Assembly: GCF_004010195.1 (NCBI RefSeq)
Contig: NC_057719.1
Coordinates: 15,265,364 to 15,285,363, forward strand
Direction of reading: 5' to 3'
DNA from: Chiloscyllium plagiosum
Taxonomy: Eukaryota
DNA: 20,000 bases
This document shows, piece by piece, positions 1,439 through 20,000 of the stretch (the first letter of the stretch is position 1; every line of letters starts with the position of its first letter). The translations under genes and the position numbers were made by a program. Below the pieces are notes generated by a model, which saw nothing but the letters and a program-made list of their open reading frames with translations, was not told the DNA's origin and did no database searches.

Positions 1439-2339
1439 CTGCAAAACAAATATTCTTTTTACTGTTCAGTTTGCATCAGCTGCTGAGTATATTAATTTGA
1501 ATTTCTTTGGGTTTTAACTTTAAGCATGTTTCAGTAATAGGTAAAGGATGAGAATACCACAAGCTCTCAAATAATGTTTCTGCCTTCACTGGTATTCCAA
1601 AGCTCAATGGAATGTACTAGTAAGGGAAAAAGAGGTTGTGAAATAAGGGTTGCAGCAACAACTGCTGCAGCAATTAAAGGGCACAAGAGACAAATAACTT
1701 CAAATGGCCAGGGTTCCAGCTTCTGACTGTTGTGTATCACCCCTCGTGAATGCATGCACATCAAGGATCGAAGTAAAGATACATTCATATTCAGCCTCAA
1801 GGGCCTTGACAGTAAGCTAGGAACAAGAGACTAACCATAAATGGTCAGTAGGAGAGATCACTAGAGGGTAATTAACATGAATGTAACTACATTCTAACAA
1901 GGAACCATTTGTTTTCAAGGGAGGAAAAAAAAAGAGAAAATTGTCAAAAAATAATTAATAAAAAGAATGCTGCTCAGATTTTCAAATGAGCACATGTGCC
2001 TTGGCTGAAGATGGGCCTAAAAATCTGAACAAGTTGAAGGAAAAATTAACAAAACAGAAAGCCTGATCTTTACACCACTGGAGCACAACCTACCTAATAA
2101 CTTCTAGAAAAGCCACACATTAAGCACATGAAAACATTTTCACAACACTGAATAGTGAGTGTTTCAGTATGTATAACTGAAACATAATTCCATCCTCTTA
2201 TTTTGAGTTCCTCTGGTAATAAAGGGCACTGTCCCATTAGATTTCTTGATAATGCTACAAATGTAAAATTTCTAATTTGCAGATGAAACAAAGCTATATA
2301 AGAATTTTTATTCCAAGGAAAATGCAAAACATTTTCAAC

Positions 2340-3105
2340 AGGATTTGGGCAGGTTTTGTGATTGGATAAGAACACAGTAGATGGAATATAAATGTGCAAC
2401 AATGTGAGGTTATCCACTTTGGTAGGAAGAACAGATGTGCAGAGTATTTGTTAAATGGTGAGAAGTTGGAAACTGTAGATAATCAAAGCAACTACGGTGC
2501 TGTCGTGAGCCTTCAGTGACTTGCTGACATGTAGCAAGTTATTAGGAAGGCAAATGGAATATTAGCCTTTACCATTAAAGGTGGTAAAAAAATTGAGTAC
2601 ATGAGTCATGAATTCTTGCTTCAATTGTGTAAGAGCTTGGTTAGTCTGCAACTAGAGTAGAGTGCGCAGTTTTGGTCTCCATATCCCAGGGAAGGTATTA
2701 TAATTGCCATAGAGGGAGTGTAAAGAAGATTCACCAGATTTGTTCCTGGATGGCAGGATGGTCTTGAAAGAGGATGGGCAAACTAGGCTTGTATTCTCTA
2801 GAGTTTTGAAGAATAAGAGATGATCTCATTGAAATCTACAAAATACTGAACAGTATAGACCGGGTAGGTGCATGCAAGATGCTTCCCACAATTTTGGAGT
2901 CTAGATCCAAGAAGCACAATTCAAAATTAAGGCGGATGCTTCATAAGTCCGTGAATAAGAAAATTTCTTTTACTCAGTAGGGGGTGAAATCTTTGGAATT
3001 TTCTACCCACAGGAAGCTGTTAGGTTCAGTCTTTGAGTACATTTAAAGCAGAGTTAGATGAATACTTTGATCAATGGCATGAGGGTTATGAAGATAGTAT
3101 GGGAA
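2340..3105 (+). mobile_element. Decayed CR1-clade LINE fragment (ORF2 C-terminus and start of 3' UTR)
   Basis: aaatgtgaggttatccactttggtaggaagaac-like segment (CEVIHFGRKN), cagttttggtctccata (QFWSP), gatctcattgaaatctacaaaatactg (DLIEIYKIL); many stops and frameshifts. Confidence 0.85.
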
Positions 3106-3108
3106 AAA

Positions 3109-3178
3109 GCCTGGGTTCAAGTCCCACCTACTTCAGGGTTGTATTTTCACATCCCTGAATAGGTTGATTAAATAATAC
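3109..3178 (+). repeat. 5'-truncated copy of the short tRNA-like repeat clustered at 14.7-15.9 kb
   Basis: ctgggttcaagtcccacctac...catccctgaataggttgattaaataata matches the 3' two-thirds of the cluster unit, including the B box GGTTCAAGTCC. Confidence 0.75.
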
Positions 3179-3184
3179 CTTCAA

Positions 3185-3770
3185 GTAGGTTGAGCAAGGG
3201 GCAGAAATCTGCCACATTTCATTTTCCCACATTATACTCAAAGTTGTTCACTTTGGCAGGAAGAATAATAAAACAGAAGATTATTTAAAATGAGAATGAA
3301 TTTAAAATTTCAAGGTGCAGAGAAATCTAGGTGCTTTAGTGCATGAGTCACAGAATGTTCGGATAGGCTTGCAACAAAAAAATTGTAAGGCTAGTGGAAT
3401 TCCATCCTTTGCTATTTGAAAAATTGAGCCAAAAAGTAAGGGGGTTACGTTTTAGTTAAGCAGGGCATTGTTGACAGCACATCTTGAATACCCATGCAAT
3501 TTGGATATGCTTCTCGAAAGGACGACGCAAACACTTTGGAGGTGATTCAGAGGTGTTTACTAGATTGATATTTTGGATGAGTGGGATGTCTTACATGGAA
3601 ACGTGGGACAGGCTGGGCTTGTTTCAACTGGATTTTGAAAGAATGACTGATGACTTAATTGAAATGGATGAGATCCTAAACTGTCTTAACAAGATAGATT
3701 GGGAAAGGATGCTTCCTCTTGAGAGTGAGTGAGTCAAAAATTAGAGGGCACCATTTAAAAATTAAGTGTC
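3185..3770 (+). mobile_element. Second decayed CR1-clade LINE fragment
   Basis: gttgttcactttggcaggaagaat (VVHFGRKN); ORF 3484-3732 contains MSYMETWDRLGLFQLDFERMTDDLIEMDEIL, a degenerate CR1 'LSYEERLxRLGLFSLExRRxRGDLIExYKI' motif. Confidence 0.85.
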
Positions 3771-3884
3771 TCCTGATTCACCCTGTAATATTTCCTTCAC
3801 TCTCAATCATCGAAGAAAATAGCATCCATGTACCATCATTGATTCACAAGATCCTAAGTGGGAAGCATCCTTGCAGTGGCATTG

Positions 3885-4096
3885 GAAAAGCACAGCAGGT
3901 GAGGCAGCATCTGAGAAGCAGGAAAATTGACGTTTCAGGCAGGAGCCCTTCATCAGGGATGAGCTCATTCCTGATGAAGGGGTCCTGCCCAAAACGTGAT
4001 TTTCCTGCTCCTCGGATGCTGCCTGATTTGCTGTGCTTTTCCAGCACCACTCTAATCGTGACTCTGATCTCCAGTATCTGCAGTCCTCACCTTCGT
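3885..4096. mobile_element. Short palindromic non-autonomous retroelement (Penelope-like inverted terminal repeat), flanked by a 15-bp target-site duplication
   Basis: Direct repeat cttgcagtggcattg at 3870-3884 and 4097-4111. Inverted repeat 3883-4043 centred on ATGAG|CTCAT (3959-3968). A CTGATGA...(G/A)AAACGT motif lies in each arm. The Penelope assignment is inferred from this architecture. Confidence 0.75.
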
Positions 4097-4270
4097 CTTG
4101 CAGTGGCATTGTTGATCATCTTTCACAGGCACTCAAAAAAATCTTTTTAAAAAAATGAATATTCTCGTCTAGCTTACAGTCCATTGACAGTACACTGCCA
4201 CCAAAGGCTTTGCATGGGCCACTGAGGGATAAAAAGAAGAATAACCCACCCTCCAGAGGTTGCTGTGAGG

Positions 4271-4586
4271 TAGATTAGATTAGATTAATTACAGTGTGGA
4301 AACAGGGCCTTCGGCCCAACAAGTCCACACCGCCCCGCCGAAGCACAACCCACCCATACCCCTACATTTACCCCTTGCCTAACACTACGGGCAATTTAGC
4401 ATGGCCAATTCACCTGACTTGCACATCTTTGGACTGTGAGAGGAAACCGGAGCACCCGGAGGAAACCCACGCAGACACGGGGAGAACGTGCAAACTCCAC
4501 ACAGTCAGTCGCCTGAGGCGGGAATTGAACCCGGGTCTCTGGCGCTGTGAGGCAGCAGTGCTAACCACTGTGCCACCGTGCCGCCC
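4271..4586 (-). mobile_element. Full-length HE1-type (V-SINE) tRNA-derived SINE of sharks and rays
   Basis: Minus strand begins gggcggcacggtggcacagtggttagcactgctgcctcacagcgcc. A box TGGCACAGTGG (4575-4565), B box GGTTCAATTCC (4531-4521), V-domain tgtgtggagtttgcacgttctccccgtgtctgcgtgggtttcctccgggtgctccggtttcctc, tail cctgtttccacactgt followed by (aatct)n. Confidence 0.92.
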
Positions 4587-4596
4587 ACCAGGGAAT

Positions 4597-4775
4597 TTTG
4601 TTTTTTTAAATATTTATTCATGGGGTAAGAGTGTCACTGGCTAAGCAGCATTTACTGCCTATCCATGATTGCCCAGGAGGCAGTAAAGACTCAATCACAA
4701 TACTGTGGGTCTGGAGTCACCGTAGATCAGACCAGGTAGTTCCCTTTCCTAAAGGACATTTGTAAACCAAATAAT
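4597..4775 (-). mobile_element. 3' half of the SINE family seen at 13411-13756, in inverted orientation
   Basis: Its reverse complement (...gtgactccagacccacagtattgtgattgagtc...gggcaatcatggataggcagtaaatgctgcttagccagtgacac...ccccatgaataaata) aligns by eye to 13575-13756. Confidence 0.8.
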
Positions 4776-5055
4776 TTGCTGGTAGTCTACACTTACTAGC
4801 AGGCTCGAGATGGCCGGAAAGAATCACTAGCTGGCCAACTCAATGGTTAAACCGCGCTTCCTATGGGAGCACATGTCTCACCTTTCCTGCCACTGGCAGA
4901 ACTGCACGGTAACAGAAAAAAATGTCAGACATCCATTTTTGATGCCTTCCTTCCTGCCATCCCACACTAAAGGGCTGGTAATGTTCATCCTTTTGTGTTT
5001 TTATTGTAATATTAACTTTCAAGACATTATTTCAATGTCATAGGCCCTTTCTTAC

Positions 5056-6736: not shown

Positions 6737-7750
6737 AACATAGGAACAGGAACAAGTCATATGGCCCCTCAAGGCAATTTGTCATTCAAATCAGATCGTT
6801 GCTGATCTGTAACCTTAATCTCTATAGCTTGTCTTTGACCAATATCACTTAAAATCCCTGTTTAACAAACATTTGTCAATCTTAGACAATCTTAGATTTA
6901 AAATTAATTTGTGCATTATCAAAGGCAAATCATGCACAAATCAATTCTACACTTCTTCTCTTTGCAAGCATTAATGTACTTTAATTTCATTCCTCCAATT
7001 TTTAGACCATGGCCCTCTTAGAGACTGCCAATAGCAGAAATACTTGGTCCCTCTCTATCCTAACTATCCCCCTTCTACCACAAAAAAATTTTCAAAAGAT
7101 TCTGCAACGTTCTAAATTCTAAAAACTGAATCCTAGTTTTTTACAACATGGACTTGAAATCTAATCCTTGACTAGGTGTAATTCAAATAAGCCTACAGAA
7201 CATTCCTTCCAAACCCAATTTTGCTCTTTCAAGATTGGTACTGAGAACTGCTCACAATGGTCTTCCATAACCTCTACCCTCTCATATTCTGTCCACTGGT
7301 TAAAAGGCCAGCACTCCAATGAACTTGCTAATTTGTTTCTGCATCTGCACATGACATTTTGTGATCAACATACAAGAGCCCGAAGTCTGTTTGGTGTTCC
7401 TCGCTTTTCATCATTTAGAAATACCCTGTTCTATCATGGGTAAATACAGGGGAATGGGTCTGGGTGGGTTACTCTCCGGAGGGTCGGGCTTGTTGGGCTG
7501 AAGGGCCTGTTTCCACACAGGAGGGAATTTAATCTAATATTTAAGGGCCCAAAACAGATCCTTGAGGAATTGCATCCTACCAATTAATGACCCTGCTCAT
7601 TATCTTTAATCGCAATTTCATTCACTCAGCCATTGTATAAATCCAGTGAATAAATTTACCTTCAGTTCAACAAGTTTCAGTTTTATTTCACAGCCTAGCG
7701 AGGCTTTTAACAAATGCCTTCTCAATGTCTGTATAAGTAACATCCATAGA
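6737..7750 (-). mobile_element. Decayed CR1 LINE (3' UTR plus ORF2 remnants), interrupted by an HE1/HER1 tail
   Basis: Starts with the antisense tail acataggaacaggaacaagtcatatggcccctcaag; ORF 7161-7352 contains HCEQFSVP (degenerate YCxQFWSP); aagggcccaaaacagatccttgaggaat is the antisense of a PQGSVLGP motif. Confidence 0.75.
7436..7538 (+). mobile_element. 5'-truncated HE1 SINE / HER1 LINE 3' tail
   Basis: gggtaaatacaggggaatgggtctgggtgggttactctccggagggtcgggcttgttgggctgaagggcctgtttccacac...aatctaat matches the tail of the 4271-4586 element. Confidence 0.85.
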
Positions 7751-9718: not shown

Positions 9719-9835
9719 GTTCTGAAGAATCATACCAGACTCAAAACATTGACTCTGTTTCTCTCTTCACAGATGCTGCCCAACCAGCAGAGTTTCTCTA
9801 GCATTCTGTGTTTCCAATTTCCAACGTTTTGCATT
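9719..9835 (+). repeat. Single-arm relative of the 3885-4096 element with a degenerate hammerhead-like motif
   Basis: gtt-CTGAAGA-atcataccagactc-AAAA-catt-gac followed by cagatgctgcccaaccagcagagtttctctagca, similar to ggatgctgcctgatttgctgtgcttttccagca at about 4014-4046. Confidence 0.6.
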
Positions 9836-12240: not shown

Positions 12241-12979
12241 CAAATTATGTGCATTTTTGCAAATGAGTTTAAGGTATATTCTGGTTTAACTTCTTGGATT
12301 CCCATAACAATCTGATAAACCTCTTAAGGTTGCCGATCAGATATTGTTTTTAAGCAAAAATACCCAGTTTCTTTAGAGCCTAACTCACATTTTTGACACA
12401 AAGAATACATAAGAACAAGTTACTCAAATAAATCCCCTAGCTCATTGTCTCGTTGCAGCCTTAATTATTCTGGATTGTTGATATGTTGAGCTTTGGATCT
12501 GATAAGGTCCCTGAATCTTTTACAGCATCACTCTTAACAATTTCAACTTAATTCACTCAATGTGCGTGTCATTTGTTTTTCCTTTTTCTTTGCAGTGCTA
12601 ATGTGCTTTCAATTATTACCAAATCATAGACATTATTTGCAGTCTAAGGATTGGATTAGAATTATTCAGTGTCATTTCAATTTGAAATCCACACATGCAG
12701 CAAAGAAAGGAAATTTCTAGCTCAAGGATCTAAGCTTTTTCAGAACTTAAATTCCAGAAAGCAGGAAGGTCAAGCAACATCCTCTACACCACTTTTAGAA
12801 TAAAGACTAGACAGCAAGGTATAAAGAGCTGCATTTAAGTACCATTGGTGGTCAATTACCTAATTATTTAGGGAAGCCTTTATTCAAGGTGCTTAGTAAT
12901 CAATGCGGACAAATGTATAGACAAAGAAAAGATAGGCAATCTCAATCCCCAGTAAGAACATACGCACGATCACACCTAC

Positions 12980-13217
12980 CAGGTTGAAAGGTTTTATAGT
13001 ATGGGCTGTAAGCCACATTCGATCCTCCGACTTTGACAGAGAGTTCGTACCTTCCTGCCTTTCTCACTGTGAAGCCCACCTTCACCACATTGCTCTTCTG
13101 TGCATGGAGTACTTCCTGTGTGACTGGAACATCCAACCCAAGCTCCATGTGTGAAATGTGAATCCGTAATCCCACAGGACGGTGAGCAGGAAATGGTCGG
13201 CCATTCTTGTAGAACAA
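12980..13217 (-). CDS. AREL1: AREL1 internal coding exon (first in window; filamin/Ig-like region), 238 nt
   Basis: Translates LFYKNGRPFPAHRPVGLRIHISHMELGLDVPVTQEVLHAQKSNVVKVGFTVRKAGRYELSVKVGGSNVAYSPYYKTFQP(G), matching recalled vertebrate AREL1 (LFYKNGQPFPAHRPVGLRVHISHVEL...). Acceptor tgtgtag|TTG, donor CCTG|gtaggt. Phase 0 to 1. Confidence 0.96.
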
Positions 13218-13299: not shown

Positions 13300-14452
13300 T
13301 TTACACAACAGAAGGAGGCTGTTGAGTCCATCATTTCCATGTCAGCTTCCAGCAAGAGGAACTCAGCAAGTCCCATTTCTTTGTATTATCCCTGTAGCCC
13401 TATAAGAAATGGGGATGACATGGCCTAGTGGTATTATCACTGGACTATTAATCCAGAGAACCAGGTAATGTTCGGGGGATATAGGTTCGAATCCCACCAT
13501 GGCATACGGTGGAAATTGAATCCAATAAAAGTCTGGAATCAACGCCATGAAACCATTGTCAATTGTCAGAAAAACCCATCTAGTTTGCTAATGCCCTTTA
13601 AGGAAGGAAATCTACTGCCCTTACCAGGTCAGGCCGACATGTGATTCCAGACCCACAGCAATGTGGTTACTCTCAACTGCCCTCAGGAGCAATTAAGGAT
13701 GGACAATAAATGTTGGCCTGGTCATTGACGCCTACATCCCATGATAAATTTAAAAAGGGTCTCATCAAGTAATTACTCAAAATCCTTTTGAAAACAACAA
13801 CCAAATCTGTTTCCATCAGATACTTAGGCAAGCACGTAGATCCTCAAAACATGCTAAGAAAAAGAAGTTTTTCCACATTTCACCTCTGTGCTCTTTGACT
13901 ATCAGCTTAAATTTGCATCTGCTCGTTCTTAACTTTTTCCTTCCATGGGAACATTTCATCTTTGCATACTACATCCAAACTCTTCATGATTTTGAAGGCC
14001 TCCATCAAACATCCTCTCAATGCTCTCTTCTCGAAGGAGAATTGTCTCAAATTATCCAAGCTACCTTTGAACTAAAGCTCCTCGTCTCGACAACCATTCT
14101 TTTTTCTCTGCAGCCTCTTCACTTATACCCTCAAAGTTCATTATCCAGAATTGAACACAATATTCCAGTGAGGCAAAACCACCTATTTACATAATGTTGA
14201 GAACTACAAAGAGGCATAAATTACAAAAATACAAAAGTTATGGTGAACCTTAAGTTTTATCTGCTACATGTCCAACATTTCCAGCCTGTCTACATCCTTT
14301 TGACATCCATCATTACCCTGCTCAAAGTTCACTATAATTCCATGTTTTGTGTCATCTGCAAACTTTAAAATTGCACCCTGCACATCACAAGTTTACATAA
14401 TTGAAATGGTTCAGGAAAAGCAGTGGTCTGACCACTGGGAAACCCCACTGCA
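13300..14452 (-). mobile_element. Decayed CR1 LINE split by the SINE at 13411-13756
   Basis: Antisense tail acacaacagaaggaggctgttgagtccatc at about 13302; ccagaattgaacacaata is the antisense of YCVQFW; ttttgtgtcatctgcaaa (14345-14362) is the antisense of the RT catalytic motif FADDTK. Confidence 0.8.
13411..13756 (+). mobile_element. Near full-length tRNA-derived SINE with a LINE-derived 3' tail
   Basis: A box TGGCCTAGTGG (13421-13431), B box GGTTCGAATCC (13484-13494), tail gcaattaaggatggacaataaatgttggcctggtcattgacgcctacatcccatga followed by an A-rich end. Confidence 0.85.
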
Positions 14453-14721: not shown

Positions 14722-15862
14722 GGTTCTTTTCAGAGTGCTTGTGGTACAATGGCAGGGTCTGAGCCAGGAAACCTGGGTTCAAGTGCCATCTACTCCAGAA
14801 GTGTAGAAGAACATTCCTGAACAGGTTGATTAGAAAACATAGAATTCAAATGTAACTTTCAGTTCAGGAGGGAGGATCATTGGCAGCACTCCATGCCAAT
14901 CACAAGCTGCGAGTAACTGGTATAGCAACATAAAATATTGCCTGCTCATGATAATGTCTGAAGCACTTGCTTAACAAGAATGTATGTACTTCTGCCTTAA
15001 AAGCATTCAAAGATCAGAATTCTTCTCAGGGCTCTTGTGGTAGTGAGCCCATCACTGAGCCAGGAGACCTGGGTCCAAGTCTTAACTGCTCCAGAAGTGT
15101 GAAATAACATCTCTAAATGGGTTGATTAGAAAATACCCAAAAGGACAGTCGTTAGAGCTCTTGAGGCATGGTGGGAGTGCCCGTACTTCTGGACCAGAAG
15201 ATCTCAATCCAAGTCCCACTAGTTCCAGAGGTGTGTTGCAAGATTTCTAATAATCTAAATATATAAATATCTGAAATAAATTGCAACACCTCAATCAGCT
15301 ATGTGGCCTAACTAATCAAGTTTGTATCGCTAATGGCTCTTGTTGTGCAATGGTAGCAATCCCACTTCTGAGCAGGAGACTTGGTTTCAATTCCCACTTG
15401 CTCTAGAGGTGTACCATAACATCGTGGAATAGACTGATGAGAATAAAAAAAAATCAACATTCTTACTAATGCTCCTAATACTTTTAGAGAAAGTCTGACA
15501 CGACAAGGGCTGGAGTGCTTTATTTCCCCCTCCCTCACCTTTGGTGGTCTGCATTGTCCTTAATGGAATTTTGTATGTAAACTGATCCATTAGAAAACAT
15601 GGGTGATCTACTAGTGGTATTAATATACAAAGAAAAACACAGGTGACTTGGTGATGACAGCAAAGCTGTTTGGTCATGTGAGATAACACTTCTGGATATT
15701 AAAGAGTGAGCAGAGTTCTTTAAGGGCTCTTGCACAACAGTGGTACCATCCCTACCTCTAAGCCAGAAGGTCTGGGTTCAAGTCCTATTCCACAGATGTG
15801 TCATAACACCTTTGAACAGGCTGAATAGAAAATGGTTGATTAGAAACAGGTTGATTAAAATA
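14722..15862 (+). repeat. Cluster of five co-oriented ~110-bp tRNA-like repeats (about 14732-14840, 15028-15137, 15154-15250, 15335-15445, 15723-15862)
   Basis: Shared by-eye consensus ggctcttgtggtgcartggtag...cytctgagccagragrcctgggttcaagtcccacytgctccagargtgtg..ataacatc.ctgaacaggttgattagaaaa, separated by unrelated spacers of unequal length. Confidence 0.85.
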
Positions 15863-19779: not shown

Positions 19780-20000
19780 GACAAGTCCCCTGGGCCGGAT
19801 GGGATCTATCCTAGGATCCTCTGGGAAGCAAGGGGAGAGATTGCCAAGCCTTTGGCATTGATCTTCAAATCATCATTGTCCACAGGAATAGTGCCTGAGG
19901 ACTGGAGGATAGCAAATGTGGTTCCCTTGTTCAAAAAGGGTAGTCGAGACAACCCTGGTAATTACAGACCAGTGAGTCTCACTTCAGTTGTTGGTAAAGT
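19780..20000 (+). mobile_element. Young 5'-truncated CR1/HER1-like LINE, ORF2 open to the window end
   Basis: Uninterrupted frame DKSPGPDGIYPRILWEARGEIAKPLALIFKSSLSTGIVPEDWRIANVVPLFKKGSRDNPGNYRPVSLTSVVGK, the canonical CR1 RT N-terminal motifs. An in-frame TAA (19777-19779) and unrelated sequence lie upstream. Confidence 0.93.

What the first reader, a model, noticed from the sequence alone, without database searches (positions are those of the whole stretch)
3870..4111. TSD-flanked palindromic mini-element with a minimal hammerhead-ribozyme-like core in each arm
Seen: a perfect 15-bp direct repeat (cttgcagtggcattg, 3870-3884 and 4097-4111) brackets a 212-bp insert. The first ~160 bp form a loop-less inverted repeat (arms of about 81 and 80 nt, centre GAG|CTC at 3963/3964). 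On the minus strand, which is the AREL1 pre-mRNA strand, the left arm reads CUGAUGA (3956-3950), agggcuccugccu (a short stem II), GAAA (3936-3933), CG, UC. This is an intact hammerhead core with a GUC cleavage triplet ending at 3929 and a loop-less palindromic ACGU helix III. The plus-strand copy (CTGATGA at 3971-3977) is damaged: GAAA reads AAAA and GUC reads GUG. Established: Penelope-like elements carry minimal type I hammerheads with palindromic helix III that are proposed to cleave as dimers, and often have inverted terminal repeats. Inference: this is a non-autonomous, ribozyme-bearing, Penelope-mobilised element (retrozyme-like) in elasmobranchs. Caveats: helix I pairing is poor in this copy and the long hairpin would compete with the ribozyme fold, so this copy may be inactive.
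Basis: partly seen in the sequence, partly recalled or inferred. Interest (0 to 1): 0.72.

Follow-up and report, generated by a model that had tools for sequence, protein, structure and literature searches.

The report
Fold-back Penelope retroelement stub, shark intron
This is a real but old, decayed insertion of two head-to-head copies of the ribozyme-bearing end piece of a Penelope-like jumping gene in a shark intron; it is one of very many such copies, and this insertion shape is already described in other animals.

Summary
In detail: exact 15-bp target-site duplication, 212-bp insert, loop-less head-to-head arms (11 differences in 79 nt), and a minimal hammerhead motif on the minus strand, in an AREL1 intron of a carpet shark. 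Shark sequencing contigs show a very high-copy ~130-nt family. Its majority sequence is an intact minimal hammerhead, its 5' ends pile up just upstream of CUGAUGA, and it has two alternative 3' ends about 44 nt apart (the Penelope 'tail'). Other palindromic copies differ in length and breakpoints, so the mirror half looks built anew at each insertion. That is the published insertion architecture of endonuclease-bearing Penelope-like elements, not a retrozyme: retrozymes are head-to-tail tandems. This copy is probably dead: both hammerheads are damaged, 5 of 11 arm differences sit at CpG, and opening the hairpin costs 38 kcal/mol. I could not link the unit to an RT/GIY-YIG ORF (no genome held), test covariation, or see an empty site. 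The scan has noted such Penelope-type hammerhead stubs before on other DNA of this genome (102 of 157 notes fit the look-up). Verdict: new member of a known kind, low interest.

The parts
3870..3884 (+). Left target-site duplication (15 bp); its last 10 nt resemble the continuation of the inverted arm (7 of 10)
   Evidence: run X2 has G>A at 3873, so the TSD drifts
3885..3963 (-). Inverted copy of the pLTR unit without tail, 79 nt; sense in AREL1 pre-mRNA
3929..3956 (-). Minimal type I hammerhead motif: core letters intact, both closing pairs altered (3937, 3928)
   Evidence: descriptor; family majority; consensus in PMC4209133 supplement
3959..3968 (.). Perfect 10-nt palindrome at the head-to-head junction, centre 3963/3964, 7 nt upstream of CUGAUGA on each arm
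3964..4050 (+). Direct copy of the pLTR unit up to the common short 3' end (about 4050)
   Evidence: table 7: loose ends behind 4050 in 1186 (X2), 1124 (X8) and 240 (X16) contigs
3971..3998 (+). Damaged hammerhead copy (G12 to A at 3991, helix II mismatch at 3982, 1-nt deletion at the cleavage triplet)
4051..4096 (+). Optional 'tail' (about 44-46 nt), present only on this arm; second common 3' end at about 4094
   Evidence: table 7: loose ends behind 4094 in 751, 772 and 138 contigs
4097..4111 (+). Right target-site duplication
1442..5055 (-). Host AREL1 intron (approximate bounds, between coding matches 5367-5056 and 1441-1361)
   Evidence: tblastn of P0001; AREL1 name

Best explanation
A dead insertion made by the machinery of an endonuclease-bearing Penelope-like element (PLE). 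It consists only of the terminal module (pLTR with minimal hammerhead, plus optional tail): one direct copy with tail and one inverted, shorter copy joined head to head, inside a 15-bp TSD. SHOWN: the anatomy; a very high-copy family; an intact min-HHR in the family majority; a 5' boundary clustered just upstream of CUGAUGA; two 3' ends about 44 nt apart; variable junctions in other palindromic copies; decay of this copy. INFERRED: the RT/GIY-YIG protein nicks both target strands 15 nt apart. Reverse transcription starts inside the RNA at one of two sites (the short end and the tail end), as shown in vitro for the anole PLE. [quoted passage not shown] The inverted arm comes either from a second priming by the other strand's 3'-OH (my odds about 55:45) or from fold-back of the first cDNA. 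The two heads are then joined with variable trimming. The hammerhead is a passenger here: on either strand it is paired off by its own antisense arm, and it has since decayed.
For: Family data: 47,306 (X2) and 51,372 (X8) contigs laid on 481 nt with flank depth 10-13; loose-end consensus gives CUGAUGA-A-GGGC/GCCC-GAAA-CGUC; 5' loose ends at the mirror of 3957 in 434 and 512 contigs with heterogeneous flanks (agreement 0.33); 3' ends at 4050 and 4094. Net lengths of the 7 centre-spanning pieces (of 24 listed) are -3, -3, -8, +1, -6, -4, -2 against this copy, and head-to-head joints run from 3957 to 3998, 4029, 4031 or 4035. The same architecture is published: inverted 5'-truncated pLTR, junction palindrome, one-sided tail, 8-10-bp TSD (PMC3846280 passages; PMC8557442 passages); opposite-strand min-HHR pairs 100-700 bp apart ascribed to truncated PLEs (PMC4209133). 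Anole PLE cuts and extends both strands, starts RT at two internal sites that define the tail, and does not need hammerhead cleavage to insert (PMC11167929). Left-junction microhomology 7 of 10 nt (P about 0.004, post hoc). Decay: 6 of the 11 arm differences fall in the first 36 nt (hammerhead head) against 5 in the next 43; 5 of 11 are at CpG; freeing the core costs 38 kcal/mol.
Against: No RT + GIY-YIG ORF could be tied to this terminus: no genome is held, the element's sense frame found no longer relative and only one chance-level hit to a CUB-domain protein. PLE membership therefore rests on motif and architecture. The gap positions in the 7 centre-spanning contigs are not printed; I infer they lie at the centre because only two indels at 5% or more are listed (3996, 4148). 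Only 15 of 329 joints, 18 of 969 loose ends and 24 of about 109,000 pieces were shown. The TSD (15 bp, 53% GC) is longer and less AT-rich than the 8-10-bp TSDs and AT-rich targets in the papers read, and the tail (44-46 nt) slightly exceeds the usual 30-40 nt. Both arms share the minority loop UCCU (majority UUUU/UUAU), which fits one template but also a fixed palindromic master. No empty site was seen.
Confidence: 0.78

Rival explanations
1. A non-autonomous palindromic element (retrozyme-like or MITE-like) that is transcribed and reinserted as one 212-nt unit.
For: One TSD brackets both arms; other loci also carry centre-spanning palindromes (7 of 24 listed pieces); both arms share the minority UCCU loop.
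Against: 7 of 7 listed centre-spanning contigs differ in net length from this copy, by six different amounts; head-to-head joints have many breakpoints; many copies begin just upstream of the core next to unique DNA, so solo units are common; only one same-strand hammerhead, locked in a hairpin; retrozymes are head-to-tail tandems.
Confidence: 0.09
2. Same insertion mechanism, but the template is a short non-autonomous master RNA (a solo-pLTR, SINE-like unit of about 130 nt starting just before the hammerhead) mobilised in trans, rather than the 5' end or a truncation of autonomous PLE RNA. This is a variant of the best explanation, not exclusive of it.
For: Sharp 5' boundary with heterogeneous flanks and huge copy number; pLTRs can act in trans (PMC3846280 passages); non-autonomous pLTR-forming Chlamys elements exist (PMC8557442 passages).
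Against: Internal RT initiation near the 5' end of a full-length RNA would give the same stubs without a separate master (inference from PMC11167929). Contig counts favour unique flanks, because identical upstream sequence collapses in assembly, so ORF-linked copies would be under-counted.
Confidence: 0.25
3. The palindrome arose after insertion (second insertion into the head of the first, or inverted duplication during DNA repair), not during one retrotransposition event.
For: PLEs tend to insert into or next to existing copies (PMC6765202 passages); the anole enzyme prefers an ATT site in its own pLTR, and ATT lies at 3967-3969.
Against: A single TSD encloses both arms with no internal duplication; both arms share a minority loop variant and carry similar numbers of private changes (about 5 each).
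Confidence: 0.07
4. The copy is kept as a working intronic ribozyme or regulatory hairpin in AREL1 pre-mRNA.
For: Core letters are intact on the transcribed strand; the insertion is shared by organisms A and B (both junctions bridged in X2 and X8); an 80-bp hairpin could be an ADAR or Dicer substrate (established knowledge, untested).
Against: Both closing pairs are lost; the antisense arm is transcribed first and the hairpin is 38 kcal/mol more stable; changes are as dense in the hammerhead head as downstream.
Confidence: 0.03

Closest known systems
Insertion units of endonuclease-bearing Penelope-like elements (Penelope/Poseidon, Neptune): pLTR + adjacent inverted 5'-truncated copy + one-sided tail (Arkhipova et al. 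2013, PMC3846280; Craig et al. 2021, PMC8557442)
   Same: Head-to-head inverted copy shorter than the direct one, palindrome at the junction, tail on one end only, one TSD round the whole unit.
   Different: No ORF sequence at all, the unit is reduced to 79 + 133 nt; TSD 15 bp against 8-10 bp in Adineta; tail 44-46 nt against 30-40; parent ORF not identified here.
Minimal hammerheads (min-HHR) of metazoan PLEs (Cervera and de la Pena 2014, PMC4209133)
   Same: Family majority fits CUGANGAH, G10.1-C11.1, GAAA, palindromic CG helix III, NUH; opposite-strand pairs near each other were already reported for Schistosoma.
   Different: Helix II only 4 bp and helix I about 2 bp (shorter than most listed); no cartilaginous fish name among five searched in the 2 supplement files held (a third file was not searched); the two motifs here are only 14 nt apart.
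Metazoan non-LTR retrozymes (Cervera and de la Pena 2020, PMC7229834; Li et al. 2026, bioRxiv 10.64898/2026.07.22.740005)
   Same: Non-coding, pLTR-related, type I hammerhead, long TSD; reported in the one chondrichthyan sampled.
   Different: Retrozymes are head-to-tail tandems with two or more same-strand ribozymes that release circular RNA; this is a head-to-head pair with one per strand.
Poseidon element of Anolis carolinensis, PAc (Frangieh et al. 2024, PMC11167929)
   Same: Two alternative 3' ends that define a tail; hammerhead in the pLTR.
   Different: PAc is autonomous and assayed in vitro; sequence likeness to this family was not tested (its GenBank supplement cannot be read here).

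Membership tests
EN+ Penelope-like element | Terminus attached to an ORF with telomerase-like RT and GIY-YIG endonuclease | not testable with these tools
   No genome held; no shark DNA found in viral, metagenome, prokaryote, phage or plasmid collections; indirect protein searches with the element's sense frame negative
EN+ Penelope-like element | Minimal hammerhead in the pLTR | tested here: met
   Family loose-end consensus against the published consensus
EN+ Penelope-like element | Adjacent inverted 5'-truncated copy, head to head, palindromic junction | tested here: met
EN+ Penelope-like element | Optional 30-40-nt tail at one end (two alternative 3' ends) | tested here: met
   Loose ends at 4050 and 4094 in all three contig sets; 44 nt, slightly longer than usual
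EN+ Penelope-like element | Variable-length TSD at AT-rich targets | tested here: inconclusive
   TSD present (15 bp) but 8 of 15 GC; loose-end consensus flanks of other copies are AT-rich
Metazoan non-LTR retrozyme | Head-to-tail tandem units with at least two same-strand hammerheads | tested here: not met
   One motif per strand, inverted; definition
Metazoan non-LTR retrozyme | Expressed as linear and circular monomer RNA | not testable with these tools
   The one raw RNA run laid gave 0 reads, which the tool marks as no test
Functional min-HHR (this copy) | Core CUGANGAH, GAAA, NUH | tested here: met
   Left arm only; right arm has G12A and a deletion
Functional min-HHR (this copy) | G10.1-C11.1 pair and a helix I closing the core | tested here: not met
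   G.U at 3937 and C.A at 3928 in the left arm; family has C and G there
Functional min-HHR (family) | Covariation in helices I and II; self-cleavage as dimer | not testable with these tools
   No individual copies could be fetched for an alignment; one search shows variation mainly in loop II and at CpG
MITE-like fixed palindromic family | Terminal inverted repeats at both ends and one fixed internal junction | tested here: not met
   54 nt lie outside the inverted repeat; 7 of 7 listed centre-spanning contigs differ in length

The most novel reading that the evidence does not exclude
These stubs are run-off products, not random truncations. PLE reverse transcriptase starts internally at the tail sites nearest the 5' end of its own transcript, copies 85-130 nt through the hammerhead to the RNA's first base, and does so from both nicked target strands at once. 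That double priming would explain in one step the sharp 5' boundary, the one-sided tail, the head-to-head palindrome and the long TSD. Thousands of such junctions in shark genomes would then be an in vivo read-out of the still undefined PLE integration mechanism.
Probability: 0.3. Interest if true: 0.55.

Novelty: new member of a known kind. Interest (0 to 1): 0.22.

Why it matters
As a single locus it matters little: a decayed intronic insertion of a known architecture. The family is a useful resource. How PLEs make their tandem and inverted insertions is called undefined in PMC8557442, and a genome with thousands of tiny, TSD-flanked, head-to-head copies allows double priming and fold-back to be told apart by counting junctions. 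I found no paper describing this shark family in 8 searches, but Repbase/Dfam and subscription journals were not searchable, Lunse et al. was not held, and bioRxiv supplements of Li et al. 2026, which cover one chondrichthyan, were not available.

Tried and rejected
Own genome: none held. Rfam at E<=10 over 3500-4500: no hammerhead family; the miRNA-model hits are generic hairpin matches far below gathering, so a miRNA reading was rejected. Pattern scans: viral contigs 0 and 0; metagenomes 78 loci and prokaryote genomes 63 loci, none of the 141 similar to the insert (best E 0.054), so chance matches. Plasmids and phages: no match. Protein-coding reading: a 150-aa and a 102-aa stop-free frame cross the insert but have no Pfam match; the 41-aa sense frame has no longer relative and one marginal hit, E 9e-4, in a CUB-repeat protein, so it gave no link to a PLE ORF. 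The antisense frames were not searched. Expression: no RNA holder listed; raw single-cell run X22 gave 0 reads, no test; X16 is only guessed to be RNA. Empty site: no 3884-to-4112 type joint among the 15 of 329 joints shown; both DNA runs carry the insertion. Summed contig depth is not a copy number (ratio to flank about 0.9-1.0 million at peak, about 30,000 if divided by 31 for contig overlap), so only a floor is claimed. PDB sequence search with an AREL1 exon frame found nothing; the Atlas gave only Filamin clusters. Classical L1 twin priming was considered and set aside because there the inverted piece is a different part of the RNA (recalled), whereas here both arms are the same part. Look-ups of earlier findings by sequence and near this place returned nothing.

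Full report
Observation. The 15-mer at 3870-3884 recurs exactly at 4097-4111 around a 212-nt insert. It is the only exact 15-mer repeat within 500 nt in the window; 4 of 100 mononucleotide shuffles of the window had any. The insert is an inverted repeat centred on 3963/3964 with no loop: 3885-3963 against 3964-4041, 11 differences in 79 columns, fold z-score -17.7. The right arm continues for 54 nt (4043-4096) without a partner. A minimal-hammerhead descriptor matches once in the window, at 3956-3929 on the minus strand. Rfam has no hammerhead hit there at E<=10. The host gene is AREL1 on the minus strand: the exon frame at 12945-13217 is 98% identical to Hemiscyllium ocellatum AREL1 and 83-86% to other cartilaginous fishes, and six coding matches place the insert in the intron between 5056 and 1441.

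The family. No genome is held, and no public contig collection I could scan held related DNA. I therefore laid four sequencing runs on 3780-4260 at 80% likeness. Two DNA contig sets from two organisms gave 47,306 and 51,372 matching contigs, and a third set 8,516; the raw RNA run gave 0, which the tool marks as no test. Depth is 10-13 on the flanks and 0.4-12 million (summed, not a copy number) on the insert, so this is a very high-copy repeat; more than a thousand contigs run off into other DNA at one end position alone. The loose-end consensus upstream of 3998-4003 is an intact minimal hammerhead: CUGAUGA, an unpaired A, helix II GGGC/GCCC with a UUUU or UUAU loop, GAAA, CGUC, then GA pairing with UC before the core. 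This fits the consensus for metazoan PLE hammerheads in the supplement of PMC4209133. Helix I is only about 2 bp. Copies end at two places, 4050 (1186, 1124, 240 contigs) and 4094 (751, 772, 138), and many begin 3-4 nt upstream of CUGAUGA next to unrelated DNA (434 and 512 contigs, flank agreement 0.33). These are 18 of 969 loose-end rows, chosen by the tool as best supported.

Is the palindrome a unit? Seven of the 24 listed pieces span the centre. After allowing for this copy's own 1-nt deletion their net lengths differ from it by -3, -3, -8, +1, -6, -4 and -2. Gap positions are not printed; I infer they are central because only two indels at 5% or more are listed (3996 and 4148). Among the 15 of 329 joints shown, a left arm ending at 3957 is joined to right arms starting at 3998, 4029 or 4031, and table 5c adds 4035. 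A fixed palindromic master would give one junction. Against this, both arms share the minority loop UCCU, which fits one template but does not exclude a small palindromic subfamily.

State of this copy. Both junctions are bridged by single-copy contigs in organisms A and B, so the insertion predates their split; no empty site was shown. Each arm has about five private changes. Five of the 11 arm differences are at CpG, and 6 lie in the first 36 nt (the hammerhead head) against 5 in the next 43, so there is no sign of selection on the motif. In the left arm the G10.1-C11.1 pair has become G.U and the first helix I pair C.A; family letters at those places are C and G (44% and 41% of depth laid on that arm in X2, a floor, because contigs go to the arm they fit best). 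In AREL1 pre-mRNA the antisense arm is made first, and forcing helix II with an open core costs 38 kcal/mol. Each strand has one hammerhead, so a dimer in cis is impossible.

Mechanism. The architecture is the one published for endonuclease-bearing PLEs: an inverted 5'-truncated copy next to the pLTR, a palindrome at the junction, a tail at one end, and one TSD (PMC3846280, passages; PMC8557442, passages). Opposite-strand min-HHR pairs were already ascribed to truncated PLEs (PMC4209133, parts 1-2 of 4). The anole PLE protein cuts and extends both target strands, starts reverse transcription at two internal RNA sites that define the tail, and inserts without hammerhead cleavage (PMC11167929, parts 1-2 of 4). 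I infer two nicks 15 nt apart, cDNA from the tail end to just upstream of the hammerhead, and an inverted arm made by a second priming or by fold-back. The last 10 nt of the left TSD match the continuation of the arm at 7 positions (P about 0.004, post hoc); both routes could use that pairing. The 5' boundary is not the GUC cleavage site and lies on the far side of the ribozyme fold, so neither cleavage nor a structural stop explains it; the start of the template RNA is the simplest reading. I reuse that reading from an earlier scan note (e1-7858714) and have not tested it.

Comparison. It works like a PLE insertion and meets the motif, inversion and tail criteria; the defining ORF link could not be tested (indirect searches negative). 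It is not a retrozyme: those are head-to-tail tandems with two or more same-strand hammerheads (bioRxiv 10.64898/2026.07.22.740005, parts 1 and 3 of 5 and passages; PMC7229834, passages). Dimer cleavage of PLE hammerheads comes from PMC4209133 and review passages in PMC6765202; Lunse et al. was not held. Penelope elements are listed for the whale shark genome (PMC8455134, one passage). Eight searches found no description of this shark family (listings only, apart from the papers named); Repbase and Dfam were not searchable, and bioRxiv supplements were not available.

Earlier scan notes. 102 of 157 notes on this genome fit a look-up for Penelope hammerheads, and those shown reach the same reading on other DNA. 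They are unchecked AI notes and are not counted as evidence.

Verdict. Real feature, correct motif call, ordinary kind: a decayed fold-back stub of a Penelope-like element. New member of a known kind, interest 0.22. The family would deserve more if junction statistics in an assembly showed double priming with run-off at the RNA 5' end.

Noticed in passing
window 9721-9835 (+): A second, more decayed Penelope-type stub: CUGAAGA, a degenerate stem, AAAACAU where GAAACGU would be, then GATGCTGCC as in the main element. nhmmer E 0.13 with the right arm, blastn E 0.046; probably another hammerhead family, weakly supported.
   Followed up: partly
window 13217-12978, 10925-10749, 8829-8647, 5367-5056, 1441-1361, 785-624 (-): Six AREL1 coding matches to P0001, residues 275-634.
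   Followed up: yes
window 4270-4590 and 7456-7538: A GC-rich SINE-like repeat 160 nt downstream of the element, with a partial inverted second copy (76% over 88 nt). The name HE1 SINE is recalled, not from a call.
   Followed up: no
window 3107-3179, 14759-14837, 15055-15137: Three related 60-80-nt pieces (73-81% alike); similar text by eye near 15340-15430 and 15710-15830. Probably an old short repeat family.
   Followed up: no
window 4603-4720 and 13641-13756: A 120-nt repeat in opposite orientations, 73% alike.
   Followed up: no
window about 2290-3000, 3240-3760 and 19780-20000: Stretches that read like decayed CR1/L2-type LINE sequence; label recalled, no call made.
   Followed up: no
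window 3873: Run X2 has G>A in the left TSD only, so the two TSD copies are already diverging in some individuals or species.
   Followed up: no
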